Shown here in pieces: positions 1,665 to 50,456 of a DNA stretch of 64,000 nt (its first letter is position 1; every line of letters begins with the position of its first letter). Location: contig MHOK01000005.1 of the NCBI GenBank assembly GCA_001820055.1, positions 7,371 through 71,370 on the forward strand. The letters are read 5' to 3'. The notes beneath the pieces are model-generated. The model did not search any database and had not been told where the DNA came from. It saw nothing but the letters and a program-made list of their open reading frames with translations. The DNA comes from Candidatus Spechtbacteria bacterium RIFCSPLOWO2_12_FULL_38_22 (lineage in GTDB: Bacteria; Patescibacteriota; Minisyncoccia; Spechtbacterales; 2-12-FULL-38-22). A program made the translations under genes and the position numbers.

Positions 1665-1671
1665 GAGGTTA

Positions 1672-1786
1672 AAAAAATAGTACAACTTATTCTATCGTAA
1701 GCCTGCCTGTCTACCTGCACGTTGTACGTAGGCAGGCGGGAACGAAGTGGCAGCGTGGAATAAGCTGTACTATTTTTTATTTTTTA
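1672..1786. repeat. Inverted-repeat hairpin element, family A copy 1, placed as a bidirectional terminator between convergent gpmI and clpP
   Basis: Outer arms AAAATAGTACAACTTATTC / GAATAAGCTGTACTATTTT. Inner CCTGCCTG...CAGGCAGG palindrome. Conserved core GGGAACGAAGTGGCAGCGTGGAATAA. Related copies at 15634, 15729 and 36080. Confidence 0.6.
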
Positions 1787-2364: not shown

Positions 2365-2519
2365 ATTCCTTCGCTCATTAGTAAATTTAAAAAATTTACT
2401 AATTCGCTTCAGTTAAATTAAACATTTAAAATGAAAAGTGAAAATTTTAGTAATTACTTTCGTAATTTTTAATTTTAAATTGCCCGCTTCGCCAAAGCTT
2501 TAGCGAGGCGAGTCGTTTT

Positions 2520-3545
2520 TTATTTTACATTAACGGCCTCTAGCAATTCAAATACTTTCTCATTTCTTATTATACCACGAATATGAACTCGTAACGCATC
2601 TGGATCAATTTGTTTTTCAGCTTCTTTAGAACTACCAAACTGTATTAAATACCTGTTTGCCTCATCTTCCACCTCTTTCTCGTCAGGAACAAAACCTTCT
2701 TTATCTGCTATTAGGCGTAGCAACAAAGAATTAACAGTTCTCTGATTTGCTTTGTCTCTCCACCCGTCTCTAACCTCTTTTAAGTTCTGCTTCGCGTTTT
2801 CTAAATATTTATCCAGCGTCATGTCCATTGACGCAATCTGCTGGCTTAGTTCGTCCTGCATTTTATCTAGCTCTTGCTCTATTAAACTATCTGGCAATTT
2901 AACTTTTATTTTATTTCCTACAGCCTCCAATATTAATAATCTAAGTTTTTGTCTCTCTTGATATTTTTTTTCCTCCATCATGCCCTCCCTCAAGCTTTGT
3001 TTAAGTCCCTCAAGTGTTTTAAATTCTCCTATCTCTTGAGCAAACTTGTCATCTAGCTCTGGTTTTTTGTCCTTATCTTTAACTCTTGAGTTCCTCAACC
3101 ACTCAAGCGCGCTATCTACTTCCTTATCCTCTACCTCCATTTTCACCTTATGTTTGGTCAGTATGTTTTTGGCTATTGCCTTATAATCCGGTAAATCAAT
3201 TTTTGGTAGCAGAGGAACAACAATTCGAAACTCAAAATCGTTTCCGTAAGCTATTTTTAAAATTTTTATATCTGGCCTTCCGATTGGTTCTATGTTGTTT
3301 TTTTCTATTACATAAACATAGTTATCTTGTATGGCTTCCTCTGCGGCCTCCTGAAAAATTACTTCCCTTCCCAAATGATTTTCTACAACATTGCGGGGGA
3401 TATGTCCTTGGCGGAATCCTTTTATTTTTATATCTTTAGATAACCTGTCTACTACCCTGCTAACAAAGCGCTCCATATCGCTTGGAGTAAGCACAATATC
3501 TATTTGTTTTTGTGAATTTTCTAAATCCTTAATTTCAATTTTCAT
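2520..3545 (-). CDS. tig: Trigger factor (short form)
   Basis: 341 aa. N-terminal ribosome-binding signature region IKGFRQGHIPRNVVE (cf. GFRxGxxP). PPIase-like middle. Shorter than canonical ~430 aa. Synteny with clpP. Confidence 0.72.
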   Translation of the reverse strand: MKIEIKDLENSQKQIDIVLTPSDMERFVSRVVDRLSKDIKIKGFRQGHIPRNVVENHLGREVIFQEAAEEAIQDNYVYVIEKNNIEPIGRPDIKILKIAYGNDFEFRIVVPLLPKIDLPDYKAIAKNILTKHKVKMEVEDKEVDSALEWLRNSRVKDKDKKPELDDKFAQEIGEFKTLEGLKQSLREGMMEEKKYQERQKLRLLILEAVGNKIKVKLPDSLIEQELDKMQDELSQQIASMDMTLDKYLENAKQNLKEVRDGWRDKANQRTVNSLLLRLIADKEGFVPDEKEVEDEANRYLIQFGSSKEAEKQIDPDALRVHIRGIIRNEKVFELLEAVNVK

Positions 3546-6939: not shown

Positions 6940-7120
6940 ATATAACAATATAACCAGATACAATATAACTATACAACAACATAACTACATAACCGCACAA
7001 TCAAACTACCACACAAGGGGTTTGGTAATCTGGTAATTTAGTAATCTGATGATTTAGTTATTTGGTTATTATAGTAATTTAGTTATCCTGCGATATAGTA
7101 ATCCGGCAATTTAGTAATGT
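6940..7120 (-). repeat. Upstream repeat module (family U), reverse orientation, 5' of nusA
   Basis: Contains GGTAATCTGGTAATTTAGTAATCTG, the reverse complement of CAGATTACTAAATTACCAGATT. Also TATAAC/GGTTAT-rich direct repeats homologous to 37601-37815 and 43635-43695. Confidence 0.5.
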
Positions 7121-7122
7121 GG

Positions 7123-7503
7123 TTATCTGACAGCATTTCTATAATATCTTAATCTTGCAACTTTGTTGGCGTTATTTATCTCCAGCGCCGCAAGGTCTAT
7201 TCTATAATCTGTGTCCTCTGGATAGTTGTTTTTTATTAAATATACCTGTGCGGTTTTTATAACTCTTTGAGCCTTTTTGTAATCAAAATGCTCTTCGGGT
7301 TTAAAATATTCTATGTACTTTGCGTCTAGCGCTTTTACTTCAACAAATACTACTGTGCGTTTATCTTTTGCAATAATATCTATCTCTCCAGTTTTGTATG
7401 AAAAATTTCTGTCAATAATTTTAAACTCTAAATCTTTTTTAAGATATTTAACTACCAAATCCTCTCCCAAGTTTCCAGTTTTTATATTATTGTGTTTAAC
7501 CAT
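7123..7503 (-). CDS. yraN: YraN/UPF0102 family endonuclease
   Basis: GEDLVVKYLKK...GEIDIIAKDKRTVVFVEVKA matches the UPF0102 (YraN) signature. Likely true start is the internal Met (MVKHNN). The ORF track extends to 7563. Confidence 0.6.
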   Translation of the reverse strand: MVKHNNIKTGNLGEDLVVKYLKKDLEFKIIDRNFSYKTGEIDIIAKDKRTVVFVEVKALDAKYIEYFKPEEHFDYKKAQRVIKTAQVYLIKNNYPEDTDYRIDLAALEINNANKVARLRYYRNAVR

Positions 7504-8732: not shown

Positions 8733-8757
8733 AACTACTAGCCATTAACCACCCTTT

Positions 8758-8803
8758 AAATAAACGTTTCAATCCGCCAGCTGGCGGATTGAAACGTTTA
8801 TTT
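8758..8803. terminator. 46-bp perfect palindromic hairpin (family H copy 1)
   Basis: AAATAAACGTTTCAATCCGCCAG|CTGGCGGATTGAAACGTTTATTT. Same arms as the hairpin at 50407-50456. Confidence 0.6.
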
Positions 8804-8842
8804 GTTGATAAATCAAACAATTTGTGGCATTATAAGTTAACA

Positions 8843-10132
8843 ATGACCTCTCAATCAAAAAATAAAAAACTTATATATGACCCTCTCTGGGGCTTAGTAG
8901 ACGTCACTCAATTTATCCCCATGATAGATATCCCCCAATTCCAAGCGCTAGGCTTTAAGTACCAACTTGGCGTAACTCACTTGCTTTTTCCAGCGGCAAC
9001 TCACACAAGAAAGGAACATTCCTTCGGCGCTCTAAAAAGAACTCAAATTTTAACTGAAAAATGGGTTAAACGCGGATTTATAAAAGAAAAAGAAGCAAAA
9101 CTAATGCAGGCATACGCGCTTTGGCACGACCTAGGACATGGACCGTTTTCTCATGTTGTAGAATCTGTAACCAAGGAACTTTGGAATCACGATCACGACC
9201 AAAACGGCGCAAAAATTATAGATAATCTAAAAAAACCCGTTACTGAAGTAGGGCTTGATATAAAAGAACTAAAAAAGTTTTTTACTAAAGAAAATCCCCT
9301 GTACCTGGGAGTACATGATAAAAATTTGGGCACAGAAAAATTAGACTATCTAAGCCGCGATGCTTATTACACTATTGGAGAAATTCCGGGAGTAGAATAT
9401 GTCACGGAACATACATATTTTATAGATAAAAAAATAATGATAGATGAAAAAGCAATAGATAACGCGAAAGCGTTACAGGATTTCTATGTAAAAATGTTTA
9501 AAACTGTATATTTGCGTAAAAACTCTTCTATCGCGCAACGCATGATGCAAAAAATGATGTTTGATTTAATTAACCTAGAAAAAATAAAGGAAAGTGAAAT
9601 GTGGGCAATGAGAGATTTTGAAATTTTGAGCCGTCTAATAAATTCCAAAGATAAAAACCTGCGGGAAAGTGTAAATAAATTTTTAGATCGCGATTTACCT
9701 CGTACGGCAATAGCTCTAAAAATAAACAGGTTCACAAAAATTGATGAAGTTCAATATAAATCGCAAACTATTATTGGGGTATCTGAAAACCAAATGAAGT
9801 CACTTGGCGCATCCCCCATCCTTGAAAGTCCCTCACAGCTAAAGAAGTTGGAGCAGGAGATCGCAAAAATGGCAAAACTGCCCGACAACTCCATACTTGT
9901 TGTTCCGCCAACATCTCAAGATCGTTTTGTACCAAAAGATATTGATATATACGTATCTGGAAACTCTTGCGCAAAACTAAGCGACTATTTCAAAGACCAC
10001 TACCGCTCAATCGAAGAGGAAGGAAAAAGTTACGCTGTGGTCCGCGTGTGCACATTCAAAGAATACCGAGACAAGTTAAGTGATAAAATTATCGCAGAAG
10101 AAATAAAAGATTATCTGTTTTCTTTGCTTTAA
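8843..10132 (+). CDS. HD-domain deoxynucleoside triphosphate triphosphohydrolase-like protein
   Basis: HD motifs RKEHSFGA ... HDLGHGPFSH, typical of the dGTPase/SAMHD1 family. The ORF track starts at 8789 (alternative start). Confidence 0.72.
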   Translation: MTSQSKNKKLIYDPLWGLVDVTQFIPMIDIPQFQALGFKYQLGVTHLLFPAATHTRKEHSFGALKRTQILTEKWVKRGFIKEKEAKLMQAYALWHDLGHGPFSHVVESVTKELWNHDHDQNGAKIIDNLKKPVTEVGLDIKELKKFFTKENPLYLGVHDKNLGTEKLDYLSRDAYYTIGEIPGVEYVTEHTYFIDKKIMIDEKAIDNAKALQDFYVKMFKTVYLRKNSSIAQRMMQKMMFDLINLEKIKESEMWAMRDFEILSRLINSKDKNLRESVNKFLDRDLPRTAIALKINRFTKIDEVQYKSQTIIGVSENQMKSLGASPILESPSQLKKLEQEIAKMAKLPDNSILVVPPTSQDRFVPKDIDIYVSGNSCAKLSDYFKDHYRSIEEEGKSYAVVRVCTFKEYRDKLSDKIIAEEIKDYLFSLL

Positions 10133-10138
10133 CACAGA

Positions 10139-10201
10139 CTAAAAAGATTTCATCCACTATAGGGTTGCCTGGCAGCCCTATAGTGGATGAAATCTTTTTA
10201 G
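10139..10201. terminator. Long perfect hairpin between convergent genes
   Basis: CTAAAAAGATTTCATCCACTATAGGG-loop-CCCTATAGTGGATGAAATCTTTTTAG, stem ~26 bp. Confidence 0.6.
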
Positions 10202-10239
10202 TAGATAGCTATTCTATAGGAGGGGCAAACTAATAAACT

Positions 10240-10292
10240 CTGATACACAAAGAAAAAGCAGGACTTAATCCTGCTTTTTCTTTGTGTATCAG
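10240..10292. terminator. Second long perfect hairpin between convergent genes
   Basis: CTGATACACAAAGAAAAAGCAGGA-CTTAA-TCCTGCTTTTTCTTTGTGTATCAG. Confidence 0.6.
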
Positions 10293-10306
10293 TTATCATT
10301 ATTAAC

Positions 10307-12208
10307 CTACAAACTATCCGAAACTGTAAAAATTTTGGTTAACCTTATATTATCAAAAAAACTTACAAACTCCTTCCATATCTTGCCTAAAGAACTAACA
10401 GGCGCAATTTCTTTAAAGTCTGGTAGGGGTAATTTAACATCTATTGTATCTGTTTTTGAACACTGGCCGTTACCAGAGTTTGAATCTGTGGCAAGAGTGT
10501 TATCTGTAACCCTTAGGATAATTGTTTGGTTCCCGTCACTGCCAAATACTGCTTGGGGATTTTGTTGGGCAGAAGAACTTGGGGTTGTGTCAGCTGGAAA
10601 TGTCCAGTTCCAAGATTGACTTGCGCTTCCTGAATCAAAAATAGTTTGATCTCCAAATTGTACAGGCTCTCCTTGGGAGGGCTTTTGAGGCGCCCAAGAA
10701 AAATCTACAAACGGATATGGATGAAGAAGAGTTCTAAATGAAGTTCCGGCTGAAAATCCACTGCCTGCGTCCGAGGCATCATATACTTGCACTCTCCAAT
10801 AGTATGTCCTATTAAATGCCAGTTGTCCGTCTCCGTCTGCGATTCCGTCTGTAAATTCTGCCACCGGAGTAGAGGAAATAGCTATAAATCTTTCCTCGGC
10901 TCCACTTGCCACCTTTCCAGAATCAAATTGCAAATTTTGTTGAGTAAAGGATGGATTTCTTGAAACCTGCAATCTATATGCTGACTGGCTTGAACTTTCT
11001 AAATCAGAAAAATCCCACCTAAAACGTTCCCTAGCTATGCACGAGGGGCCAGAACCGATAACTAAACTGGCGGGCGAAGTGATTACTGTGGGGGGAGTAT
11101 TTATTAATGTACAAACCCTATCTCCATTTGGATCCTCGTAACCTGCGGGCATAGTTGCTTGTACTCCTCCGAGATTTGTACACAAATCTATAATACATGC
11201 TTGCGTATTGCATGCTTGCGAATCGCTTGTGCTTGTGCATGAAGTCGTATCCCTATTAATCGCAAGACGAGTGCGTGTTTGAGTGCCACCGCCACAAGGT
11301 TCAGAACAAGCACTCCAGACACTCCATTCAGAATATATACAACATCTGTCATCCAAAGAACATCTTTTTTCATTTGGATACGGAGCGCAAACTGTTCGTT
11401 CTTGCGGAACTTCTGTCGGATCACATTTCTCGCCTCCTCCACAACTGCCGACGGTCGTCCACGGTCCTTTGGCGCATGAATCACAAGACCGATGAGGTGT
11501 ACAACTTATAGACCCCGCGCAGTTAGTTTTTAAACCAGAATCGCATATACCGCAAGTAGGCGTAGACGCACTACATATTTGCGTACAAACCCTATCTCCA
11601 TTTGGATCTTCGTAACCCGCAGGCATAGTTGCCTGATTCCCTGCAATGTTTGTGCATACATCGCTAACGGGGCAAGTGGGAAGGTTTACCCCGTCCCATC
11701 TTATGGTAGTACTCCCAGATGGACAGGCGGCTTCTGAAGGAGCCTTGCCATCTACATTGGCCCTAACAGAATTAACCGGAGTACTGCCGTTACAACATAT
11801 TTTATACCGCCCGCCCACGGTACAATTACAATATCCTGCCCTCAAATACGGCGAAGGACCTGGTTCGTCATATTTATCTGCGGTTGAGCATGAGCTTGTG
11901 GTATAGATGAGTCTCCAACTACATGCATATCTACCCGTTCTCCTGCAAGAGGTAGTGTACTTACTCCATGTGTTAGTCTTGCTATTTGGGCCACAGGCCT
12001 CTCCACACCCTCCTGAATCGGTACGACTAGGACCATTATTACAGACTACGTTCGCGCCGGAGGGAGGACTACACCTTACTGGATCACATGATCCCAAACC
12101 ACCATCCGCCCGATATGGCTGATAAGCGCGAACTATGCTGAAAAAACCAAAAAACACAGCTACACTAACTGCCAAAAAAAGACTATGTTTAAGATATCGC
12201 TTATTCAT
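10307..12208 (-). CDS. Secreted/cell-surface Cys-rich adhesin-like protein with thrombospondin type-1 repeat, Fn3-like and PKD-like domains
   Basis: N-terminal signal/anchor. Residues ~291-338 read CIYSEWSVWSACSEPCGGGTQTRTR...QACNTQAC, a canonical TSP1 pattern (WSxWSxCSxxCGxGxQxRxR). Duplicated MPAGYEDPNGDRVCT modules. Fn3-like segment (TYYWRVQV). PKD-like segment (FGDQTIFDSG...WNWTF...ILRVTDN). Locally elevated GC. Confidence 0.7.
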   Translation of the reverse strand: MNKRYLKHSLFLAVSVAVFFGFFSIVRAYQPYRADGGLGSCDPVRCSPPSGANVVCNNGPSRTDSGGCGEACGPNSKTNTWSKYTTSCRRTGRYACSWRLIYTTSSCSTADKYDEPGPSPYLRAGYCNCTVGGRYKICCNGSTPVNSVRANVDGKAPSEAACPSGSTTIRWDGVNLPTCPVSDVCTNIAGNQATMPAGYEDPNGDRVCTQICSASTPTCGICDSGLKTNCAGSISCTPHRSCDSCAKGPWTTVGSCGGGEKCDPTEVPQERTVCAPYPNEKRCSLDDRCCIYSEWSVWSACSEPCGGGTQTRTRLAINRDTTSCTSTSDSQACNTQACIIDLCTNLGGVQATMPAGYEDPNGDRVCTLINTPPTVITSPASLVIGSGPSCIARERFRWDFSDLESSSQSAYRLQVSRNPSFTQQNLQFDSGKVASGAEERFIAISSTPVAEFTDGIADGDGQLAFNRTYYWRVQVYDASDAGSGFSAGTSFRTLLHPYPFVDFSWAPQKPSQGEPVQFGDQTIFDSGSASQSWNWTFPADTTPSSSAQQNPQAVFGSDGNQTIILRVTDNTLATDSNSGNGQCSKTDTIDVKLPLPDFKEIAPVSSLGKIWKEFVSFFDNIRLTKIFTVSDSL

Positions 12209-15551: not shown

Positions 15552-15633
15552 TTGTGCTCCCGTCTACTCACAAGAACTAAACATAAAATACATAAAAAAA
15601 GAGCCCTAGTCAATGGGCCTTGGGACGTAAAAT

Positions 15634-15718
15634 AAAATAGTACAATTTATTCCGTCGTAAGCCTGCCTGCGGTAGGCAGGCGGGAACGAAGTGGCAGCGT
15701 GGAATAAATTGTGCTATT
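15634..15718. repeat. Inverted-repeat hairpin element, family A copy 2
   Basis: AAAATAGTACAATTTATTCCGTCGTAAGCCTGCCTGCGGTAGGCAGGCGGGAACGAAGTGGCAGCGTGGAATAAATTGT. Confidence 0.6.
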
Positions 15719-15728
15719 TGTTAAAAAA

Positions 15729-15856
15729 AGAGTTTGTATAATTTATTTCGTCGTAAGCCTGCCTACCGCAGGCAGGCGGGAATGAGCGTAGCGAATGGCA
15801 GCGTGAAATAAATTGTACAAACTCTTTTTTTAATAAACTGTACTATTTTTTATTTT
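15729..15856. repeat. Inverted-repeat hairpin element, family A copy 3, with conserved 25-nt tail
   Basis: Tandem to copy 2. Inner palindrome CCTGCCTACCGCAGGCAGGC. Tail AATAAACTGTACTATTTTTTATTTT is also present after copies 1 and 4. Confidence 0.6.
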
Positions 15857-21907: not shown

Positions 21908-21956
21908 AAACTTCCTGGGGGTTGAATCTCCTGGGGGTTGAACCCCCAGGAGATTG
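21908..21956. repeat. REP palindromes (1.5 copies) downstream of the RAYT-type transposase gene
   Basis: CTTCCTGGGGGTTGAA then perfect palindrome TCTCCTGGGGGTTGAACCCCCAGGAGA. Confidence 0.65.
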
Positions 21957-21990
21957 CCGCTTATTACTTCCGACTTCTAATTTCCTGTTG

Positions 21991-22019
21991 ATTTCCCGGG
22001 GGTTCAACCCCTGGGAAAT
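21991..22019. repeat. REP palindrome
   Basis: ATTTCCCGGGGGTTCAACCCCTGGGAAAT, immediately 3' of the transposase stop. Confidence 0.65.
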
Positions 22020-22024
22020 GTGCA

Positions 22025-22750
22025 TTAAAACGTATCCGCTCTAATAATATTATTCTCCGCTTTAAAATTTATCCAGTCTTCAACAATTCTGCGACAACTA
22101 CTTTCTCCTCCAAATAAGTTTAAATAAAAATCTCTTTCTGTAACTAGAGGGAAATTAGAATTTCCAATATAATCACAATAACTAGACCACCTATACCTTT
22201 CCAAAAAATTTAGTGCGTTGTTCTTGTTTTTAACTATTAATTCTTTCCAATCCGACTCCACTAGTTCTACAGGATTTGTATGAACATAGCTAAATATAAC
22301 CATTAATTGTTCGTTAGTCTTAATTTTAACACTTCTATATCTACCCTGAAATATGCCACCCATACCACTCCTATTGTACTTCTCATTAAAATATCCCGTA
22401 TATCCATTGCCTAATTTCTTCATAAATAGAGATATACCGCCATCGTTTATCTCTCTCAAAATTAAATGAAAATGATTGCGCATAAGAACAAGGGCTAAAA
22501 TAGCAACTATCGGCTTACGTTGTTTAACACTTCTAGCCTCTAACTTCTTAGGGGTTGAACCCCCAGGAAGTCGTCTTTCGTCATTCTTTAAGTCTCCTAT
22601 AACAATAAGCTCCTTGTTATTAAACCAATATAATGATTCAATAAAGCGCAAATAATCTTTATCGTCTAAAAATATATCGCGTTTATCATATCCGCGATTA
22701 TATACATGGTATATTCCATTTATTTCAAAATCTCTAGGTGGTGAAGCCAT
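22025..22750 (-). mobile_element. IS200/IS605-like Y1 HUH transposase, REP-associated (RAYT)
   Basis: 241 aa. YHVYNRGYDKRDIF N-terminal motif. HUH motif NHFHLIL. Catalytic Tyr region YVHTNPV. Flanked on both sides by REP palindromes. One REP-like copy at 22546-22575 lies in-frame inside the CDS (RLPGGSTPKKL). Confidence 0.65.
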
Positions 22751-22765
22751 AAAGTCAACCTATCA

Positions 22766-22798
22766 TACAATTCCTGGGGGTTCAACCCCCAGGAATTG
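22766..22798. repeat. REP palindrome upstream of the RAYT-type transposase gene
   Basis: Perfect palindrome ACAATTCCTGGGGGTTCAACCCCCAGGAATTGT. Confidence 0.65.
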
Positions 22799-22874
22799 TA
22801 AATTAGCCACCGAGTCCGCCGAAAGGGCGAATAAACTCCGCGAGGCGAACCAAAACTCTTTGACTTTTCCTACG

Positions 22875-23819: not shown

Positions 23820-24239
23820 ATGGAAAAAATTTTTAATAGAATACTATTTGGGGTATTGATCATATTTATCGCGACACTTCCGATATCTCCACAAATTACT
23901 GAAGCAGATACAAGAGGGGGCGGACTAATCCCTTGCGGAGGAACTGAAAACCCTTGCGGTGTACGGGATCTATTTGTTCTACTGCACAATGTGGTGGATT
24001 TTGGTATTACAAAACTGGCTCCCATATTCGTTGTAATGATGCTCGTAATTGGAGGGTTCCACATACTAACTTCGGCAGGTAATCCGGGGCGCGTTACCAA
24101 GGGTAAGGACCTAATAAAATGGGCCTTAATCGGTTATGCGATAGTATTATTGTCATGGATCATTATAAATACGATATTTAGTCTCATCGGCCTTGCCAAT
24201 TGGACGGGGTTAAACAAATGGTGGGAAATAAAACTATAA
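23820..24239 (+). CDS. Small exported VirB2/TrbC-like (pilin-like) two-helix protein, stand-alone paralog
   Basis: 139 aa. Signal peptide, Cys pair (PCGGTENPCG), TM1, motif SAGNPGRVTKGKDL, TM2 (ILLSWIIINTIF). Same module as the N-terminal parts of 46899-48122 and 48132-49715. Confidence 0.45.
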   Translation: MEKIFNRILFGVLIIFIATLPISPQITEADTRGGGLIPCGGTENPCGVRDLFVLLHNVVDFGITKLAPIFVVMMLVIGGFHILTSAGNPGRVTKGKDLIKWALIGYAIVLLSWIIINTIFSLIGLANWTGLNKWWEIKL

Positions 24240-36006: not shown

Positions 36007-36079
36007 AAAACAGTCTTTATTCAATGTCGTTTACTTGACGCACAACATAAGTACATACAAGAAAATAAAACAAAAACAA

Positions 36080-36190
36080 AAGAGTCTGTATAATTTTATT
36101 TCGTCGTAAGTGGGAATGAGCGTAGCGAATGGCAGCGTGAAATAAAATTATACAGACTCTTTTGTTAATAAACTGTACTGTTTTTTATTT
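36080..36190. repeat. Inverted-repeat hairpin element, family A copy 4 (lacks the inner palindrome module)
   Basis: AGAGTCTGTATAATTTTATTTCGTCGTAAG-TGGGAATGAGCGTAGCGAATGGCAGCGTGAAATAAAATTATACAGACTCT plus the AATAAACTGTACTGTTTTTTATTTTTAC tail. Confidence 0.6.
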
Positions 36191-36205
36191 TTACTATTTT
36201 TAAGT

Positions 36206-37363: not shown

Positions 37364-37600
37364 TTTATTGACAGACGAAGATGTGGTTTTTAATTTCTCG
37401 ATAATATATTTCTATAGCTTAAGGGTTGAATAAATACACCATTCAGCTACAATCTAAGAGTATTTAATATATAATCTGCGTAATCAAAAATGCTGCTTTC
37501 GCAGCACTCCTATAGTATTCAGCATAGCAGTTACACCCTATTTGTCAATAGGTCTAGGTGGAAAAAGTGTTAATATCGCATAGTGACTGTATTACTATAT

Positions 37601-37815
37601 TACTAGATTACAAAATTACTAAATTACCAGATTACAGAAACGCCGGATTACTAGATTACAAAATTACTAAATTACCAGATTATTTACATGACCCTGCGGT
37701 TGTACGGTTATATAGTCATCTTATTATGTAGTTATATAGCCGTCTTGTTACATGGTTATATGGTTATGTAGTTATTGTTATATAGTTATATAGTCATCTT
37801 GTTATTAGTTATCTT
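37601..37815 (+). repeat. Upstream repeat module (family U), 5' of pcrA
   Basis: Two tandem copies of ATTACTAGATTACAAAATTACTAAATTACCAGATTA, followed by TTATATAGTCATCTTRTTAT direct repeats. Confidence 0.5.
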
Positions 37816-39769: not shown

Positions 39770-40582
39770 ATGGTGCAAAATATAAAAAACTTATTAGAAA
39801 AATACAATGTAACACCGAACAAAGTGCTGGGGCAAAATTTTTTAATAAACGAAGGTGTCGCAGATGAGCTTATCAAAGCGACGTGCTTAACAAAAGATGA
39901 TACTGTGGTTGAGGTCGGGCCGGGAACGGGTGTCATCACGAAAAAATTAGCGCAGATTGCAAAAAAAGTAATAGCTGTGGAAAAAGACCCTAAACTTATC
40001 CCAATTCTCCAAAAAGAACTAAAAACTTTTCTTAATATTGAAATTATAAACGAGGACATTCTTAAATTCAATCCCGCAAACTACTCACTACAAACTACCT
40101 GCCTACCGGACAGGCAGGCTCACTACTCACTACTTGGCGCCCCTCCCTATTATCTGACCGGACGCCTGTTTCGTCACTTTTTAGAACTCTCTCTTATTCG
40201 ACCGACACAAATCTCCCTTATTATACAGAAAAATGTCGCTCAAAGAATTATTGCAAAACCACCAAAATCTAATATCCTAGCAACATCTATTCAATTTTAT
40301 GGAGAACCAAGTATTATCAATATAATTTCTAAAAACTCTTTTTGGCCCCGACCCAAAGTTGATTCTGCTATTTTGGTGATTAAAGATATAAAAAATCCTA
40401 CCACAAATGAGCAAAACTTTTTTAAAATTGTGCGCGCTGGCTTTTCTTCACCAAGAAAACAGCTCAAATCAAACCTAAAACAACAATTTAAACTAGATAC
40501 GGCGTTGGAAATAGACTTTTCGCGCAGAGCAGAAACACTCACCATAAAAGAATGGGCATACTTAACAGAAAAACTGCGCTAG
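39770..40582 (+). CDS. rsmA: 16S rRNA (adenine1518/1519-N6)-dimethyltransferase
   Basis: VLGQNFLINEGV ... VVEVGPGTGVITKKL SAM-binding motif. Degenerate NLPYNIS region (APPYYLTG). Contains a 42-bp palindrome-bearing insertion at 40080-40133. Confidence 0.85.
   Translation: MVQNIKNLLEKYNVTPNKVLGQNFLINEGVADELIKATCLTKDDTVVEVGPGTGVITKKLAQIAKKVIAVEKDPKLIPILQKELKTFLNIEIINEDILKFNPANYSLQTTCLPDRQAHYSLLGAPPYYLTGRLFRHFLELSLIRPTQISLIIQKNVAQRIIAKPPKSNILATSIQFYGEPSIINIISKNSFWPRPKVDSAILVIKDIKNPTTNEQNFFKIVRAGFSSPRKQLKSNLKQQFKLDTALEIDFSRRAETLTIKEWAYLTEKLR
40080..40133 (+). repeat. Palindromic mini-element with 12-bp flanking direct repeats inside the rsmA reading frame
   Basis: ACTACTCACTAC-AAACTA-CCTGCCTACCGGACAGGCAGG-CTC-ACTACTCACTAC. 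The palindrome matches the inner module of family A repeats (CCTGCCTACCGCAGGCAGGC). Confidence 0.5.
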
Positions 40583-43035: not shown

Positions 43036-43611
43036 ATGTTGGATATTGCCCTTAATAACTACGTACAAGCATTTGATACAACTCCGCAGAAGATAAAGGA
43101 TGTGCTTTTTGCCGACTTTACATCATCGGCAATAAAAAACATTACTCACCGACATAACGCGCAAAATAACATGCTGGATATATCTGCAACCATTGGTTAT
43201 GTACTAGTTGGCCTTATTCCCGTAAAAAACATTATTGAAGTTTTAAAATTAGAAGCGCAACTTGATCAAAACACAGCTCGCAATATAGCCTATGACATAC
43301 GCGAACAGATATTCGCGCCCATAGCTCAAGAACTTGCTTCAATACAAGCGCAAGCGCAAAACAGTTGGGGACAAATCAACGTACTTCAACCGCAAACAAT
43401 GCTTACTGTAGCTCCTGTTTTAGACGAATCAATCACAAGAGAAAAACTACAAATGATTCCTCCTGCGTTACAAGACCATCCTGCCCTAGAACTCCCCACA
43501 AAAGTAGCGCCCGCCCCGCCTCAAAACTTGCCAACAGAACCAAAAGCAATAGACAATATTCCGCCCGACAATCGAATAGATTTAAGAGACAAAAGAGATA
43601 CAAGGTTTTAA
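43036..43611 (+). CDS. Hypothetical soluble protein in the T4SS-like cluster
   Basis: 191 aa. No TM. Gln/Pro-rich C-terminus. Confidence 0.3.
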   Translation: MLDIALNNYVQAFDTTPQKIKDVLFADFTSSAIKNITHRHNAQNNMLDISATIGYVLVGLIPVKNIIEVLKLEAQLDQNTARNIAYDIREQIFAPIAQELASIQAQAQNSWGQINVLQPQTMLTVAPVLDESITREKLQMIPPALQDHPALELPTKVAPAPPQNLPTEPKAIDNIPPDNRIDLRDKRDTRF

Positions 43612-43634
43612 CGCCTACTGATAAACCCGTACAC

Positions 43635-43695
43635 TATTACTAGATTGCAGAAGTACCAAATTACTAGATTACAAAATTACTAAATTACCAGATTT
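43635..43695 (+). repeat. Upstream repeat module (family U), 5' of the VirB3-like gene
   Basis: ATTACTAGATTGCAGAAGTACCAAATTACTAGATTACAAAATTACTAAATTACCAGATTTG. Confidence 0.5.
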
Positions 43696-43717
43696 GTTAT
43701 CTTGTTATTTAATTATA

Positions 43718-44119
43718 ATGCAATATTCAACTCCACAATTTATAGACAGGGAACAAAAGCTGCTGGGGCCACTAACTGTACACCAAACAGTTATTCTTGG
43801 TTTAACTACTGTGTTTTTGGTAATATCCTATTTTATATTTAATTTCTTTTTGTTTAGCGTGTTACTCGTAATTCTTGGAGGCACGAGTATCTCAATATCT
43901 TTTATTAAAATAAACGACAGACCAGTATACCAGTTTGTAACTTCTTTTTTTGGATATTTTTTAAAACCCCGCATATACATATGGCAAGGAGAATCTCAAA
44001 ATCCTGTTGCGCAACCTCAAACCACGCAAAAGACACAACAAGAAACTGAGCCTCAAAAGAGATCTCCCCAAATTACAAAAAAAGAACTAGAAGAACTGAC
44101 AGAATTTCTTAACAAATAA
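43718..44119 (+). CDS. VirB3-like small membrane protein
   Basis: Two adjacent TM helices near the N-terminus. Immediately upstream of VirB4. The ORF track starts at TTG 43694. Confidence 0.3.
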   Translation: MQYSTPQFIDREQKLLGPLTVHQTVILGLTTVFLVISYFIFNFFLFSVLLVILGGTSISISFIKINDRPVYQFVTSFFGYFLKPRIYIWQGESQNPVAQPQTTQKTQQETEPQKRSPQITKKELEELTEFLNK

Positions 44120-44120
44120 T

Positions 44121-44771
44121 ATGGCACAACCCTCAACTCAACAATTTATACCGATAGATAATATAAGAGATGATGTGGTTATTTTAAAAGGCGGGCAAAT
44201 GCGCGCTGTTTTACAAGTATCCAGCATAAACTTGGCCCTAAAATCGCAAGACGAACAGGACGCAATAATTCAAAGTTACGGAGCGTTTCTTAATTCTCTA
44301 GAATTCCCGATACAGATACTCGCAAATTCCCGCTATATGAACCTAGACGAATATCTTAAAAACCTCAACGACATGATAGAGAAACAGCCATCCGAACTGA
44401 TGCAGATACAAACCCAAGAATATATAAATTTTATACAAGAATTCTTGTCACAAGACTATGTAGTATCTACAAACTTTTACGTTACGGTGCCCTTCAGTCT
44501 GGTTGATATAGATATTCAAAAGGGCGGTGCGCAAGAAAGATTTAAAGCCTTACTTGGAAAACAAAGCGAACTATCCTATATAGACCCCAAAGAATTTGTA
44601 TCTTACAGGAACCAACTAGTGCAGAGGGTTGAATTTATAGCAAGCGGTTTGCACAGAATGGGACTTGTTATAGATATGCTAAACACCGAACAGTTAATAT
44701 CCTTGTTTTGGAGCTTGTACAATCCCGAGGACTTAAAAAAAAGGTCTTTAGTAAAATCATTATTTGAATAA
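44121..44771 (+). CDS. VirB4/TrbE-family protein, N-terminal domain encoded as a separate ORF
   Basis: IPIDNIRDDVVILKGGQMRAVLQVSSINLALKSQDEQDAI... resembles the VirB4 N-terminal domain. Stop TAA overlaps the next ORF's start (TAATATG). Confidence 0.55.
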   Translation: MAQPSTQQFIPIDNIRDDVVILKGGQMRAVLQVSSINLALKSQDEQDAIIQSYGAFLNSLEFPIQILANSRYMNLDEYLKNLNDMIEKQPSELMQIQTQEYINFIQEFLSQDYVVSTNFYVTVPFSLVDIDIQKGGAQERFKALLGKQSELSYIDPKEFVSYRNQLVQRVEFIASGLHRMGLVIDMLNTEQLISLFWSLYNPEDLKKRSLVKSLFE

Positions 44772-46542
44772 TATGAAGCAGCTTGACGCACAACAAATCA
44801 ACCAGAAAGAACTTGAGCAAGAAAAAAAAAGGCGTTTAATAAATGTCCTGGCACCTCCGGTGGTAGAAATTGAAGCAGATTTTATAAAATTAGGTGGAGT
44901 ATTTGTTCGTACATTATTTATATCAAGTTACCCTAGATTTCTTTCACAAAACTGGATCAGTCCAATTATAAATTTGGACGAAACTGTTGATGTGTCCATA
45001 TTTATACAACCGATACCAACAGAATCTGTGCTTAAAAAACTGGAAAGCCAACTGACCGGCGTGGAAGCAGATATGATGGAGCGAGAAAAAAAGGGGCTGA
45101 TTCGCGACCCATTGCTTGAAGCGGCGTATACAAATATAGAAGATTTGAGAGATAAAATGCAAACCTCAGAAGAGAGGGTATTTAAGTTTGGGTTATATTT
45201 AATGCTTTACGGAAAAACAAAAGAAGCGCTTGAAGATGTTGAAAATAAAATTAAATCCCTACTGGAAAGTAGATTGATATACGCAAAACCCGTTGTATAC
45301 AAACAAGAACAGGGAATCGTGGGTGGACTACCTCTGGGTATAGACAACCTTAAATTAAACACGAGCCTAAACACATCATCGCTTTCTGCGTCTTTCCCTT
45401 TTGTTTCTTTTGACTTATCGGACAACAAGGGCATTCTTTATGGAATTAACCGACACAATTCAAGCCTAATACTATTTGACCGTTTCTCCTTAGAAAACGC
45501 AAATACTGTGGTTTTAGGAAAAAGTGGGGGGGGTAAAAGTTATGCTGTAAAATTAGAGATTCTGCGCTCTTTAATGCTTGGCATAGACAATATTGTAATA
45601 GATCCAGAAAATGAGTATAAATATCTTGCGGAAGCGACAGGAGGCAGTTTTTTTCATATATCGCTTACAAGCGGGGACCATATAAACCCTTTTGATATAC
45701 CCCAACCCCAACCAGACGATAAACCTCAAGAGGTTTATCGGGCTAATGTAATAACCTTAATGGGACTACTCAAACTTATGCTGGGCTCTATGACCCCAGA
45801 AGAAGAAAGCGTTTTAAATGAAGCAATAGACCAAACTTATGCCTCATACGATATTACAGCGGACACAGAGAGTTTCTGGAAAAAATCTCCACCCCTAATG
45901 AGAGACCTCCAGGCCGTGCTAGAAAGCATGCAAGGGGGAGAAGCGCTTGGACAACGGTTAGAAAAATATACGAAAGGCATCTATTCAGGATTTTTAAACG
46001 AAAGAACAAACGTAGAGCTAAACGACCAGCTGGTTGTTTTAAGCATAAGGGATATGGAAGAGGAACTGCGCCCAATAGCCATGTATATAATAATTGACTA
46101 TATCTGGGGAGCTATACGGCGGGAGCTTAAAAAAAGAATTTTAACAATAGACGAGGCTTGGTGGATGCTACAACAAAAAGAAAGTGCCTCGTTTTTGTTT
46201 GGAATTGCAAAACGAGCTCGTAAATACTTTTTGGGGTTAACAACTATCTCCCAAGATATAGCAGATTTTTTAAGCAGTGACTACGGCCGCGCTATTATTG
46301 CAAATTCTTCACTTCAAATTTTAATGAAGCAGTCTCCAACCACAATAGACCAAGTGCAAGAAGTATTTAATTTGACAGATGAAGAAAAACTACTGTTACT
46401 GGAGGACAATGTGGGCGAGGGTTTGTTTTTTGCGGGAACCAAGCATGTCGCCATAAAAATAATGTCCTCCTACATAGAAGACCAAATAATAACATCCGAC
46501 CCAGAGCAACTGCTTGAAATAAAAAGAATGAAAGAAAATTAA
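44764..46542 (+). CDS. VirB4/TrbE-family T4SS ATPase, C-terminal ATPase domain
   Basis: Walker A VVLGKSGGGKSY. DPENEY motif. Walker B ILTIDEAWWML. Probable ATG start at 44773. Confidence 0.85.
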   Translation: MNNMKQLDAQQINQKELEQEKKRRLINVLAPPVVEIEADFIKLGGVFVRTLFISSYPRFLSQNWISPIINLDETVDVSIFIQPIPTESVLKKLESQLTGVEADMMEREKKGLIRDPLLEAAYTNIEDLRDKMQTSEERVFKFGLYLMLYGKTKEALEDVENKIKSLLESRLIYAKPVVYKQEQGIVGGLPLGIDNLKLNTSLNTSSLSASFPFVSFDLSDNKGILYGINRHNSSLILFDRFSLENANTVVLGKSGGGKSYAVKLEILRSLMLGIDNIVIDPENEYKYLAEATGGSFFHISLTSGDHINPFDIPQPQPDDKPQEVYRANVITLMGLLKLMLGSMTPEEESVLNEAIDQTYASYDITADTESFWKKSPPLMRDLQAVLESMQGGEALGQRLEKYTKGIYSGFLNERTNVELNDQLVVLSIRDMEEELRPIAMYIIIDYIWGAIRRELKKRILTIDEAWWMLQQKESASFLFGIAKRARKYFLGLTTISQDIADFLSSDYGRAIIANSSLQILMKQSPTTIDQVQEVFNLTDEEKLLLLEDNVGEGLFFAGTKHVAIKIMSSYIEDQIITSDPEQLLEIKRMKEN

Positions 46543-46543
46543 T

Positions 46544-46897
46544 ATGGCTTTGCTCCACAAGAAATTAAAAAAGCGTATAGAAAAAGAATCTGTGTGGGGA
46601 GATAACTTCTTAATATTATTCTGGGCTATATTTATAGACATTATAGGATTTATTTCCGGATTATTGGGATTTCTTATTGTTCCTATAATATTTTCTAACA
46701 TTCTAAGTTCCATAGCCGGTATTCCTATTTTTGTTTGGGGTTATAAAAAATATAAAAAACGCGGAGGCTTTGGTGTTTGGAAATACATAAAACAAGTCTG
46801 GAGGACATCTCTAGCAGAAACGCTTGTAAGCCCGGGACCATGGTTAACTTTATTCGTAAGAAAAACAATACGAGGTAAAAAAATATTTAAATTCTAA
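46544..46897 (+). CDS. Small membrane protein in the T4SS-like cluster
   Basis: 117 aa. Basic N-terminus and 2-3 TM helices. Confidence 0.35.
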   Translation: MALLHKKLKKRIEKESVWGDNFLILFWAIFIDIIGFISGLLGFLIVPIIFSNILSSIAGIPIFVWGYKKYKKRGGFGVWKYIKQVWRTSLAETLVSPGPWLTLFVRKTIRGKKIFKF

Positions 46898-46898
46898 A

Positions 46899-48122: not shown

Positions 48123-48131
48123 ACACCCTTT

Positions 48132-49715: not shown

Positions 49716-49740
49716 TTGTTTATTATTAACATAAAAGTAA

Positions 49741-50394
49741 ATGAAGCATAATCTGAAAACTTTATTAGCCTTTGGCGGCTTACTGCTGGGTTTAACTTTG
49801 ATATTTGTATTTATAAATAGGTTATGGGATGTACAAGATCCAGAAACTTTTGTAATAAAGAGAACAGACCAAACAACAACGCAATGGGATAGAATTTTAC
49901 AACAAAAAGACACAGAGAACGCAAAGATTATAACTAATGTATACGACGGCTACGAAATAACAATTCCAAAAAATTGGCTAGCTCCCCAAAAAAGTCCCTC
50001 TGCCCTACGTCTATATTCATACGAACAGCTACAATACCGTACAGAAAAAAATCTATTAGAAAATATAGAAAAATGGCCCCCACTAGAACACGAGATGCCG
50101 ATATTCAGTATAGATATCTTAGAAAAAATAGAAAAAACCCCTCTAGATGTTTGGCTAAACACCTCGCCCTTTGTAACAAACGTCCTCCCTGGTGAATTAA
50201 TTTTTAAAAAAATAAAAATAAACACTTTGGAAGCCTTGAAAGCTATACAACAAACATATGAAGAAGACGGTAGCCTAGGACTTATGCAAAGTGTCTTTGT
50301 TGTGTCTGGTAAGAATAGAGTTTACATCTTAACCTGCGCCGACGACTTACAAAAATGTGAAAACGCGATAAAAACCTTTAAAATCCTCGAATAA
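49741..50394 (+). CDS. Bitopic membrane protein, possibly VirB8-like
   Basis: 217 aa. N-terminal TM plus ~190-aa extracytoplasmic domain, the VirB8/PrgL topology and size. No motif-level support. Confidence 0.25.
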   Translation: MKHNLKTLLAFGGLLLGLTLIFVFINRLWDVQDPETFVIKRTDQTTTQWDRILQQKDTENAKIITNVYDGYEITIPKNWLAPQKSPSALRLYSYEQLQYRTEKNLLENIEKWPPLEHEMPIFSIDILEKIEKTPLDVWLNTSPFVTNVLPGELIFKKIKINTLEALKAIQQTYEEDGSLGLMQSVFVVSGKNRVYILTCADDLQKCENAIKTFKILE

Positions 50395-50406
50395 GTGGGC
50401 CCACAA

Positions 50407-50456
50407 ATCAACAAATAAACGTTTCAAACCTGGTTTGAAACGTTTATTTGTTGATT
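50407..50456. terminator. Palindromic hairpin (family H copy 2) between convergent genes
   Basis: AATCAACAAATAAACGTTTCAAACC-T-GGTTTGAAACGTTTATTTGTTGATT. Shares AAATAAACGTTTCAA arms with 8758-8803. Confidence 0.6.

What the first reader, a model, noticed from the sequence alone, without database searches (positions are those of the whole stretch)
1672..1786. Family A inverted-repeat hairpin elements (four copies) acting as terminator-like modules
Four ~85-115-bp elements share outer arms (ACAATTTATTCC...GGAATAAATTGT), a conserved core (GGGAAYGARGTRGCAGCGTGRAATAA) and an AATAAACTGTACTATTTTTTATTTT tail. They sit at 1672-1786, 15634-15718, 15729-15856 and 36080-36190, always at the 3' ends of genes and twice between convergent genes. 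Copies 2 and 3 are tandem. The modular presence or absence of the inner palindrome suggests a composite, possibly mobile element (MITE-like), or a small RNA gene family.
Basis: seen in the sequence. Interest (0 to 1): 0.55.

Follow-up and report, generated by a model that had tools for sequence, protein, structure and literature searches.

The report
Dispersed nested-hairpin repeats in terminator slots
A small uncultured groundwater bacterium (Candidatus Spechtbacteria) carries a private family of about 100-base hairpin repeats, copied to at least twelve places, that sit where ordinary transcription stop signals sit in its relatives; it is a new example of a known kind of bacterial repeat, with some unusual details.

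Summary
All four copies are on the + strand at the stated coordinates. The 16-nt core is exact in all four.

The family extends beyond the window. There are at least 18 copies at 12 loci in contigs of the same Candidatus Spechtbacteria population or close kin. None were found in relatives, GTDB representatives, viral contigs, phages, plasmids or Rfam.

Each copy is a 20-28 bp AT-rich stem bracketed by an A-run and a T-run. At its tip is an asymmetric core of about 35 nt that is nearly invariant (1 of 25 columns vary, against 21 of 32 in the arms).

A GC-rich mini-hairpin of 19-47 nt sits at one fixed point in the core. It can be absent, flipped or nested. At copy 4 it is present or absent between assemblies whose compared flanks are identical.

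Eleven of twelve loci abut a gene 3' end. At the iPGM/ClpP gap, relatives carry a plain bidirectional terminator.

Best reading: a lineage-specific REP/MITE-like repeat family that serves as bidirectional terminators, with a separately unstable REP-like inner module. How it moves is not shown. No target duplication, empty site or parent IS was found. Two RayT-like Y1 transposases exist, but they are flanked by other palindromes.

A small-RNA gene family is not supported. Interest is moderate.

The parts
1670..1786 (+). Copy 1, type A arms, short core. Left arm 1670-1694. TCGTAAG 1695-1701. Inner nested palindrome 1702-1737 (36 nt). Core GGGAACGAAGTGGCAGCGTGGAAT 1738-1761. Right arm and T-run 1757-1786.
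   Evidence: It starts 6-8 nt after the iPGM stop (1664). Its T-run overlaps the ClpP stop codon at 1777-1779. It is the only hairpin in this 112-nt convergent gap.
15629..15722 (+). Copy 2, type A arms, short core. TCGTAAG 15655-15661. 19-nt mini-hairpin CCTGCCTGCGGTAGGCAGG 15662-15680. Core 15682-15705. Right arm to about 15722.
   Evidence: Identical in 8 full-length independent contigs; two further contigs break off inside the repeat and are identical over the part they cover.
15723..15856 (+). Copy 3, type B arms, long core. TCGTAAG 15751-15757. The same mini-hairpin with its loop inverted (CCTGCCTACCGCAGGCAGG) 15758-15776. Core 15778-15809. Right arm 15805-15831. Extra A-type right arm as 'tail' 15832-15856.
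   Evidence: (I3). Best match of model R1 at 129 bits.
36075..36191 (+). Copy 4, type B arms with perfect 28-nt arms, long core, no mini-hairpin (a single T at 36111). TCGTAAG 36104-36110. Core 36112-36143. Right arm 36139-36166. Tail 36167-36191.
   Evidence: (I9). In other assemblies 47 nt replace the T at 36111, with the compared flanks 100% identical in L027. An identical B copy lies at L138 2549-2644.
15602..15619 (-). Ordinary small intrinsic terminator on the minus strand, just past copies 3 and 2 in the direction of the decarboxylase-like gene. It is not part of the family, but it shows that this slot also has a conventional terminator.
40098..40118 (+). Solitary mini-hairpin CCTGCCTACCGGACAGGCAGG of the same type as the inner module of Family A. 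It lies in frame inside the ksgA/rsmA gene and is flanked by the 12-nt direct repeat ACTACTCACTAC.

Best explanation
Family A is a lineage-restricted family of dispersed, nested palindromic repeats in a Candidatus Spechtbacteria (Patescibacteria/CPR) genome. It is non-coding, copy-and-paste DNA of the REP/MITE/ERIC kind.

Anatomy. Each unit is a long AT-rich hairpin with a 20-28 bp stem bracketed by an A-run and a T-run. At its tip it displays an asymmetric, almost invariant core of about 35 nt: GTCGTAAG / CGGGAAYGA(GCGTAGCGA)AKTGGCAGCGTG.

Location and likely function. Units lodge in the short gap after stop codons. There they most likely act as the bidirectional intrinsic terminator, or 3'-end hairpin, for the flanking genes.

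Inner module. A GC-rich REP-like mini-hairpin (CCTGCCT-loop-AGGCAGG, 19 nt, or 36-47 nt when a second hairpin is nested in its loop) occupies one fixed site in the core, AAG^CGGG. It is gained, lost or flipped independently of the rest.

Shown: the anatomy, the dispersal, subfamilies copied whole, stem covariation, core invariance, the polymorphism of the inner module, and occupancy of a slot that holds a plain terminator in relatives.

Inferred: termination itself and the means of copying. My preferred guess for copying is a single-strand hairpin intermediate handled by a Y1/HUH enzyme of the RayT type. This genome encodes at least two such enzymes.
For: 1. Real family: exact cores and arms far above chance.
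2. Dispersal:
- 10 true loci were found among JGI metagenome contigs; 8 are distinct after two duplicate pairs (L013=L023, L014=L022), one of them the copy-4 locus itself.
- A 3-copy cluster lies 7 kb beyond the window end.
- In total that is 18 copies at 12 loci.
3. Copied as whole units: the B copy at L138 2549-2644 equals copy 4 including its unusual arms. The A-B composite recurs at copies 2-3, L015, L011, L025 and L138.
4. Stem is maintained: 95.5% of cells are paired and 11 of 23 outer-stem pairs show changes on both sides. Slid controls give 40-46% paired.
5. Core is more conserved than the arms: 1 of 25 against 21 of 32 variable columns, Fisher p = 1e-6.
6. Terminator slot: 11 of 12 loci abut a gene 3' end. 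At the conserved RNase Y-iPGM> <ClpP-trigger factor locus, three relatives (64-71% iPGM identity) carry a plain A-run, 8-10 bp GC hairpin and T-run where copy 1 sits. Copy 1 is the only hairpin in its gap.
7. The genome's other 3' ends also use unusually long perfect hairpins.
8. Inner module is separate:
- At copy 4 the empty allele is in the window, L126, L127, L130 and L133. The 47-nt allele is in L027, L128, L129 and L131.
- Flanks are 100% identical over 1276 and 253 nt in L027. L128 shows a few downstream SNPs.
- The loop is inverted between copies 2 and 3.
- The same hairpin type occurs outside the family, in ksgA, L014, L113 and L048, where about 0.14 occurrences are expected by chance by my own rough estimate.
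9. Enzymes of the right class exist. A RayT-like Y1 transposase lies at 22025-22750 (Pfam 27.9 bits against a cut-off of 23; NCBIfam REP_Tyr_transpos E = 5e-11). A 49%-identical paralog is P0210. Each is flanked by its own GC-rich palindromes.
Against: - No target-site duplication can be read at any copy, because the arms run into A and T runs.
- No empty site for a whole element was seen. Copy 1 is identical in 6 contigs. Copies 2-3 are identical in 7 of the 8 contigs that span them, with 1 SNP in the eighth.
- No solitary arm and no IS with matching ends occurs in the window.
- The palindromes that flank both RayT genes differ from anything in Family A. No RayT lies near other copies.
- The L013/L023 copy sits between divergent greA and glutaredoxin genes, where no terminator is needed.
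- The slot of copies 2-3 also has an ordinary terminator.
- The stems are AT-rich and the 'loops' are 40-90 nt, unlike textbook terminators. The simple terminator scan does not call them.
- Terminator function does not explain why the core is invariant.
- No expression data are available.
Confidence: 0.6

Rival explanations
1. Family A is a structured RNA. The long stem is P1. The invariant core, with an optional P3 hairpin, is the functional part. It would be either a small-RNA gene family or a cis-acting 3'-UTR element, for example a protein-binding or processing site.
For: - The core is nearly invariant while the stem changes by paired substitutions.
- An optional variable-length hairpin at a fixed position is typical of structured RNAs.
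- The + strand folds are 6-11 kcal/mol more stable than the - strand folds.
- A 4-bp helix UCGU/AYGA is kept, with C-to-U giving G-U.
Against: - Outside two fixed positions there is no wobble bias: 13 G-U against 10 A-C. The stem is therefore not tuned to one RNA strand.
- No promoter-like site lies on the + strand next to any of the four copies.
- At loci with same-direction flanking genes, the core-sense strand is antisense to them.
- No Rfam family matches, even at E <= 10.
- Nothing was found outside one population: 0 in GTDB representatives and 0 in about 80 kb of three relatives.
- Decayed copies sit next to intact ones.
- The core helices never vary, so they give no covariation evidence.
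Confidence: 0.15
2. Family A units are REPIN-like substrates of a RayT (Y1/HUH) transposase. They would move as single-strand DNA hairpins at the replication fork. Successive palindromes would insert into the single-stranded loops of earlier ones, giving the nested structure.
For: - Two RayT-like paralogs exist in this population, each with its own flanking palindromes.
- A related palindrome sits at the tip of a longer terminator hairpin at 10157-10183.
- Nesting is seen at three levels: a 27-nt unit in the loop of the 19-nt unit, which lies in the core loop.
- No target duplication is seen, as expected for IS200/IS605-type chemistry (my own knowledge).
- Orientation follows the replication direction. 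All four window copies, left of dnaA/dnaN, are on the + strand. The cluster right of the origin is on the opposite strand.
Against: - By the published definition, REPINs have conserved REP ends and a poorly conserved spacer (PMC3337134). Family A is the reverse.
- The arms are not themselves palindromes.
- Neither RayT is flanked by Family A sequence.
- The copy number is low, about a dozen loci known.
- Only 4 loci have a known replichore, and gene direction is confounded with replication direction.
- Loop inversion and hairpin gain or loss can also arise by template switching without any enzyme.
Confidence: 0.2
3. The copies are ordinary terminators that share sequence only through local duplication and gene conversion. 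Nothing is mobile.
For: - Tandem clusters occur (copies 2-3 and the 3-copy cluster in L138).
- Whole units are fixed in all sampled strains.
- The copy 4 alleles differ by an indel plus a C/T change, which a conversion tract could explain.
Against: - The copies lie at 12 unrelated loci with no flanking similarity.
- Identical subfamily members are found tens of kb apart: copy 4 and the L138 B copy.
- Relatives have unrelated simple terminators in the same slot. The sequence therefore arrived there after the lineages split.
Confidence: 0.05

Closest known systems
REP / REPIN elements with RAYT transposases (Pseudomonas, Enterobacteria; PMC3337134, PMC3116915)
   Same: Extragenic palindromic repeats that form about 90-nt hairpins. 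They are bracketed by A and T runs thought to be co-opted for transcription attenuation. Subfamilies exist. Y1 transposase genes flanked by cognate palindromes are present in the same genome.
   Different: - In REPINs the two REP ends are conserved and the spacer is not. Here the central core is invariant and the arms vary.
- The arms are not palindromes in themselves.
- The copy number is about a dozen loci, not hundreds.
- The RayT genes here are flanked by other palindromes.
Palindromic MITE-like repeats at gene ends: Correia/NEMIS (Neisseria), ERIC/IRU (Enterobacteria), RUP and BOX (Streptococcus). Recalled from my own knowledge.
   Same: Long imperfect palindromes of 100-150 bp in intergenic DNA. 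They are often transcribed into mRNA 3' ends, where they terminate or stabilise transcripts. They have modular variants with internal insertions or variable modules.
   Different: - No target-site duplication and no transposase-matched terminal repeats could be identified.
- There is no sequence similarity to any of them.
- The host is a streamlined CPR genome.
Small dispersed repeats (SDR) of Nostocaceae and Rickettsia palindromic elements (RPE). Recalled from my own knowledge; SDR are cited in PMC3116915 and PMC2884548.
   Same: Very small (about 20-30 nt) hairpin units that nest inside one another, tolerate both orientations, and can sit in frame inside protein genes. This matches the behaviour of the CCTGCCT..AGGCAGG mini-hairpin (core loop, nested 27-nt unit, ksgA).
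   Different: Unrelated sequence and host. Mobility here is inferred from one population polymorphism and from dispersed occurrences.
Bidirectional intrinsic terminators
   Same: An A-run, a hairpin and a T-run between convergent genes. The same slot is occupied by a plain one in relatives.
   Different: The stem is 20-28 bp and AT-rich at its base. The 'loop' is a structured insert of 40-90 nt with an invariant sequence that is shared between loci.

Membership tests
Intrinsic (Rho-independent) terminator | Stable stem-loop directly followed by a U-run on the transcribed strand | tested here: inconclusive
   Stable hairpins are present (-34 to -53 kcal/mol) with T-runs on both strands. However, the stems are AT-rich at the base and the loops are far above 8 nt, so the consensus scan does not call them.
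Intrinsic (Rho-independent) terminator | Position just downstream of a stop codon, at the end of a transcription unit | tested here: met
   All window copies and 11 of 12 loci meet this. Relatives have a plain terminator in the copy 1 slot. The exception is L013/L023, which lies between divergent genes.
Intrinsic (Rho-independent) terminator | Transcripts end there | not testable with these tools
   No expression data are available.
MITE | Terminal inverted repeats | tested here: met
   Arms are 20-28 nt and 85-100% complementary.
MITE | Target-site duplication flanking the element | tested here: inconclusive
   The arms merge into A and T runs. Aligning five composites gives no clear duplicated flank.
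MITE | A parent IS or transposase whose ends match the arms | tested here: not met
   No solitary arms above chance occur in the window. There is no similarity in plasmid or phage collections. The rest of the genome could not be searched.
MITE | Presence or absence of the whole element at orthologous sites | tested here: not met
   Copy 1 is identical in 6 contigs. Copies 2-3 are the same in the 8 contigs that span them, apart from 1 SNP. Only the inner module is polymorphic.
REPIN / REP-RAYT system | Two conserved REP palindromes in inverted orientation separated by a less conserved spacer (PMC3337134) | tested here: not met
   The core (spacer) varies in 1 of 25 columns and the arms in 21 of 32. 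The arms are not palindromic.
REPIN / REP-RAYT system | The RAYT gene is flanked by the same REP that is dispersed | tested here: not met
   RayT 1 is flanked by CCTGGGGGTTSAACCCCCAGG. RayT 2 is flanked by CTATAGGGACTCCAGGAGTCCCTATAG. Neither occurs in Family A.
Described RNA family (Rfam 15) | Match to a curated covariance model | tested here: not met
   The whole window gives only two tRNAs at gathering score. The region of copies 2-3 at E <= 10 gives only noise.
Small-RNA gene | Own promoter, and a strand-specific structure | tested here: not met
   No promoter-like site lies on the + strand next to any of the four copies. G-U against A-C is 13 against 10.

The most novel reading that the evidence does not exclude
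The invariant asymmetric core is not passive cargo. It would be a recognition module displayed on a single-strand DNA (or RNA) hairpin, oriented with respect to replication. Family A together with the mini-hairpins would then represent a hairpin-loop-targeting mode of spread in CPR bacteria: each palindrome inserts into the loop of an earlier one, driven by the RayT-like Y1 enzymes. The stem need only pair, and the loop carries the specificity. That is the reverse of REPINs and of classical MITEs.
Probability: 0.15. Interest if true: 0.7.

Novelty: new member of a known kind. Interest (0 to 1): 0.4.

Why it matters
CPR/Patescibacteria genomes are about 1 Mb and are usually treated as almost free of repeats. 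This population carries several things that cut against that view.

- It has a private family of hairpin repeats that has taken over terminator positions.
- It has a mini-hairpin that comes and goes between near-identical strains.
- It has at least two RayT-like transposases with their own palindromes.

That makes it a compact natural system for asking how REP-like DNA spreads and gets co-opted as terminators.

There is also a practical consequence. Several contigs in the public assemblies break at or near these repeats, so they limit assembly of these genomes.

The point that is not ordinary is the conserved loop with varying stem. It is the one feature worth an experiment.

Tried and rejected
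- Exact-core scan of 185,579 GTDB species representatives: 0 hits.
  - The source species itself seems to be absent or masked there.
  - The result therefore says only that no other representative has an exact core.
- Viral contigs: 0 hits.
- Plasmid and phage BLAST: only chance matches at E about 0.2-0.7.
- Rfam at gathering score and at E <= 10: nothing.
- Model R1 on about 80 kb of three Spechtbacterales relatives and on other Patescibacteria loci: nothing.
- Two contig look-ups failed because my ORF starts (TTG/GTG) differed from the called genes.
- Integron attC sites: rejected by inspection. There are no GTTRRRY/RYYYAAC core sites, and the neighbours are housekeeping genes.
- A 9-codon ORF in the long core (ATGAGC...TAA): rejected, because the short core shifts the frame by 8 nt.
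- Self-cleaving ribozymes, TnpB/IscB guide RNAs and retron RNA: rejected for lack of any Rfam signal or partner gene.
- A promoter in the arms (TATAAT in type B): considered, but no usable -35 and no scan hit.
- The ksgA mini-hairpin as an insertion polymorphism: all cluster members are 270 aa, and B. subtilis KsgA has a linker of similar length there. An insertion could not be shown.
- RayT near other copies: none.
- Literature search for RAYT or REP elements in CPR: nothing relevant in the library.

Full report

Yes. The four elements are at the stated coordinates, all on the + strand.
- The 16-nt core TGGCAGCGTGRAATAA has four exact matches.
- The 25-nt tail has three matches against none expected.
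- The left arm plus TCGTAAG has three matches against none expected.
- Each copy folds much better than shuffled sequence on either strand, with z from -6.4 to -7.9.

**2. Anatomy**

A unit reads, from outside to inside:
- an A-run;
- a left arm;
- G-TCGTAAG;
- an optional GC-rich mini-hairpin;
- C-GGGAAYGA;
- either AG or GCGTAGCGAA;
- TGGCAGCGTG;
- a right arm and a T-run.

There are two main arm types.
- Type A is AAAATAGTACAATTTATTCC. It occurs in copies 1 and 2.
- Type B is AAAAGAGTYTGTATAATTT(T)ATTTC, which is 13 bp longer. It occurs in copies 3 and 4.

The 'tail' AATAAACTGTACTATTTTTTATTTT is simply a type A right arm. It is copy 1's own arm, and an extra, unpaired one after copies 3 and 4.

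The mini-hairpin is CCTGCCT-loop-AGGCAGG.
- In copy 2 the loop is GCGGT.
- In copy 3 the loop is its reverse complement, ACCGC.
- Copy 4 lacks the hairpin altogether.
- Copy 1 and several outside copies have a second, 27-nt hairpin (CCTGCCTACGYACAACGYGCAGGTAGA, in either orientation) nested in the loop of the first.

**3. The organism**

The window comes from a Candidatus Spechtbacteria (Patescibacteria/CPR) population from aquifer groundwater.
- NCBI MAG contig MHOF01000004.1 of GCA_001821835.1 carries the same loci.
- The ksgA product is named Candidatus Spechtbacteria in four NCBI records.
- The nearest other iPGM proteins are 64-71% identical and are also Spechtbacteria or Spechtbacterales.

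dnaA and dnaN lie at 54.0-56.7 kb. rnpA and yidC lie just to the left, and the cumulative GC skew has its minimum there. The origin of replication is therefore inside the window.

**4. The family outside the window**

- An exact-core scan of GTDB representatives found nothing. The source species itself appears to be missing or masked there.
- A scan of JGI metagenome contigs gave 22 hits.
  - Twelve are high-GC chance matches.
  - Ten are true members in about 36-41% GC contigs.
  - The ten reduce to eight distinct loci after duplicates: L011, L013, L014, L015, L017, L025, L026, and L027.
  - L027 is the copy 4 locus itself.
- Extending the window by 10 kb found a three-copy cluster, A-B-A, at L138/L139 2476-2787.
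- In all there are 18 copies at 12 loci. The flanks of different loci share no similarity.
- None were found in 20 kb around the second RayT gene.
- None were found in about 80 kb from three Spechtbacterales relatives or in other Patescibacteria loci.
- None were found in viral contigs, phages or plasmids.
- No Rfam family matches.

I cannot prove that all the metagenome loci belong to the same species. They do come from the same sample series, and they share other 31-47-nt palindromes with the window at 98-100% identity.

**5. How the copies relate to each other**

- Whole units are copied. The B copy in L138 equals copy 4, including its two paired arm changes and an extra T-A pair.
- The A-B composite of about 240 nt recurs at copies 2-3, L015, L011, L025 and L138. 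In these composites the B part is almost identical, and the A part carries several core substitutions, so it looks decayed.
- Across 15 copies the outer stem is 95% paired, and 11 of 23 pairs show changes on both sides. Slid controls give 40-46% paired.
- Among 12 intact copies the core varies in 1 of 25 columns and the inner arms in 21 of 32 (Fisher p = 1e-6).
  - Three copies with an extra T inflate the arm count somewhat.
  - By eye, 10 of 16 left-arm columns still vary without them.
- This pattern is the opposite of REPINs. There the REP ends are conserved and the spacer is not (PMC3337134). It is also the opposite of transposase-bound terminal repeats.
- Outside two fixed G-T positions, the stems hold 13 G-T and 10 A-C mismatches. 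They are therefore not tuned to one RNA strand.

**6. The inner module behaves separately**

- At copy 4 the single T at 36111 is replaced by 47 nt in L027, L128, L129 and L131. The short allele is in the window, L126, L127 (an NCBI MAG), L130 and L133.
- These come from different samples and assemblers. L027 is 100% identical to the window over 1276 and 253 nt of flank, and L128 carries a few SNPs downstream of the element. The difference is therefore a recent, real polymorphism rather than an assembly artefact.
- The 46-nt composite hairpin in L027 is the reverse complement of the one in L025a.
- The same hairpin type occurs outside Family A:
  - in frame in ksgA at 40098-40118, flanked by a 12-nt direct repeat;
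  - in another terminator hairpin, L014 236-264;
  - in a Spechtbacterales relative, L113 6461-6480;
  - in a Falkowbacteria contig, L048.
- My rough estimate is about 0.14 such occurrences expected by chance in the 827 kb examined.
- Whether these changes arise by insertion and excision, or by template switching at hairpins, cannot be decided here.

**7. Where the copies sit and what they probably do**

- Eleven of twelve loci abut the 3' end of a gene.
- The clearest case is copy 1.
  - The gene order RNase Y, iPGM>, <ClpP, trigger factor, H+-PPase, NusA is conserved in three relatives.
  - In those relatives the iPGM/ClpP gap holds a plain bidirectional terminator: an A-run, an 8-10 bp GC hairpin and a T-run.
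  - Here the gap holds copy 1 and nothing else.
- Other 3' ends of this genome also use unusually long perfect hairpins. A 20-28 bp stem is therefore in keeping with the rest of the genome.
- I infer that the units work as bidirectional terminators or 3'-end hairpins.
- Against a purely functional view:
  - The L013/L023 copy lies between divergent greA and glutaredoxin genes.
  - The slot of copies 2-3 also has a normal terminator at 15602-15619.
  - Nothing about termination explains the invariant core.

**8. Orientation**

- At every locus with a neighbouring 3' end, the T-tail side of the unit faces the 3' end of a gene on the opposite strand.
- In the window, all copies left of the origin are on the + strand. 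The cluster right of the origin is on the other strand.
- This fits a rule tied either to replication direction or to gene direction, and the two are confounded.
- With four loci of known replichore and eleven of twelve overall, the statistics are only suggestive.

**9. Possible means of movement**

- The window encodes a RayT-like Y1/HUH transposase at 22025-22750.
  - Pfam Y1_Tnp scores 27.9 bits, above its cut-off.
  - NCBIfam REP-associated tyrosine transposase gives E = 5e-11, below its cut-off.
  - The HUH motif NHFHLIL is visible in the translation.
- It is flanked by CCTGGGGGTTSAACCCCCAGG palindromes.
- A 49%-identical paralog elsewhere in the same population is flanked by CTATAGGGACTCCAGGAGTCCCTATAG palindromes.
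- A related palindrome sits at the tip of the long hairpin at window 10157-10183.
- So enzymes that handle single-strand hairpins, and their small GC-rich palindromes, are active parts of this genome.
- Neither gene is flanked by Family A sequence, and no RayT lies near other copies. The link is by analogy only.

**10. Comparison with known kinds**

- It works like the palindromic intergenic repeats of other bacteria that end up as terminators or mRNA 3' hairpins: REP/REPIN, Correia, ERIC, RUP.
- Its mini-hairpins behave like the very small nested repeats of Nostoc, or like Rickettsia RPEs. These comparisons rest on my own knowledge.
- Membership fails for REPIN, because conservation is reversed and there is no cognate RayT.
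- Membership is unproven for MITE, because no target duplication, empty site or parent IS was found.
- It is not a described RNA family.

**11. Verdict**

This is a real, lineage-specific repeat family, and a new member of a known kind. It has two uncommon traits: a conserved loop on a variable stem, and a nested mini-hairpin that is polymorphic within a population. All of this is in a CPR genome, where such repeats have hardly been described; my searches of the paper library found nothing relevant. Interest is moderate, at 0.4.

Noticed in passing
window 21912-22805: A RayT-like Y1/HUH transposase gene (22025-22750, minus strand, 241 aa) lies next to tRNA-Arg. It is flanked by 21-nt GC-rich palindromes CCTGGGGGTTSAACCCCCAGG at 21930-21950, 21995-22015 and 22773-22793. 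This is a REPtron-like arrangement. One more copy of the palindrome is in L025 820-840.
   Followed up: partly
window 22547-22567; L134 10206-10232: Both RayT-like paralogs carry a copy of their own flanking palindrome inside their coding sequence, at about the same relative position (around codon 60-75). In the window gene it encodes ..RRLPGGSTPKKLE... This could mean self-insertion or autoregulation.
   Followed up: no
window 40085-40135: A 21-nt hairpin CCTGCCTACCGGACAGGCAGG lies in frame in a variable linker of ksgA/rsmA. It is flanked by the 12-nt direct repeat ACTACTCACTAC, which looks like an insertion with a duplicated target. All cluster members are 270 aa, so no polymorphism was seen.
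   Followed up: partly
window 8757-8803 and 50405-50457; L011 8320-8367; L026 1049-1091: A second family of perfect palindromes at gene 3' ends shares AAATAAACGTTTCAA. The arms are 23-26 nt with a 0-1 nt spacer. Its copies in two other contigs match the window at 98-100%.
   Followed up: no
window 10138-10301: Two long perfect hairpins (15- and 24-bp stems) stand back to back between convergent genes 8789-10132(+) and 10307-12208(-). The first has at its tip a CTATAGGG..CCCTATAG palindrome related to the palindromes that flank the second RayT paralog.
   Followed up: partly
window 7025-7128 (inverted), 37567-37700, 43628-43699: Arrays of an 8-bp unit ATTACNAR (for example ATTACTAG ATTACAAA ATTACTAA ATTACCAG) lie just upstream of gene starts: UPF0102 at 7563, the uvrD-like gene at 37821, and the ORF at 43694. 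They may be phased upstream promoter elements or protein-binding arrays.
   Followed up: no
window 53320-56736: The gene order rnpA, (rpmH), dnaA, dnaN together with the cumulative GC-skew minimum places the replication origin inside the window. Yet genes at 24-50 kb run head-on to the leftward fork.
   Followed up: partly
window 43036-50394: A cluster contains a TraG-like P-loop ATPase (44764-46542) and three proteins with T4SS-pilin domains (23820-24239, 46899-48122, 48132-49715). Direct repeats of 226 nt at 47153 and 48344 link the two pilin-like genes.
   Followed up: no
L026 2779-2805 and 2923-2949: Two 27-nt palindromes of the CTAYAGGG..CCCTRTAG type lie inside a 363-aa ORF (2399-3490, minus strand). 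This is another case of REP-like hairpins within coding sequence.
   Followed up: no
L113 6408-6553: In a Spechtbacterales relative, the same CCTGCCT..AGGCAGG hairpin forms part of a GC-rich, apparently structured stretch just downstream of a tRNA. There is only a weak RAGATH-8 similarity (17 bits, gathering score 86.7).
   Followed up: partly
L124, L125, L130-L133 (contig ends): Several public metagenome contigs stop at or close to copies 2-3 or copy 4. These repeats appear to be assembly breakpoints for this population.
   Followed up: no
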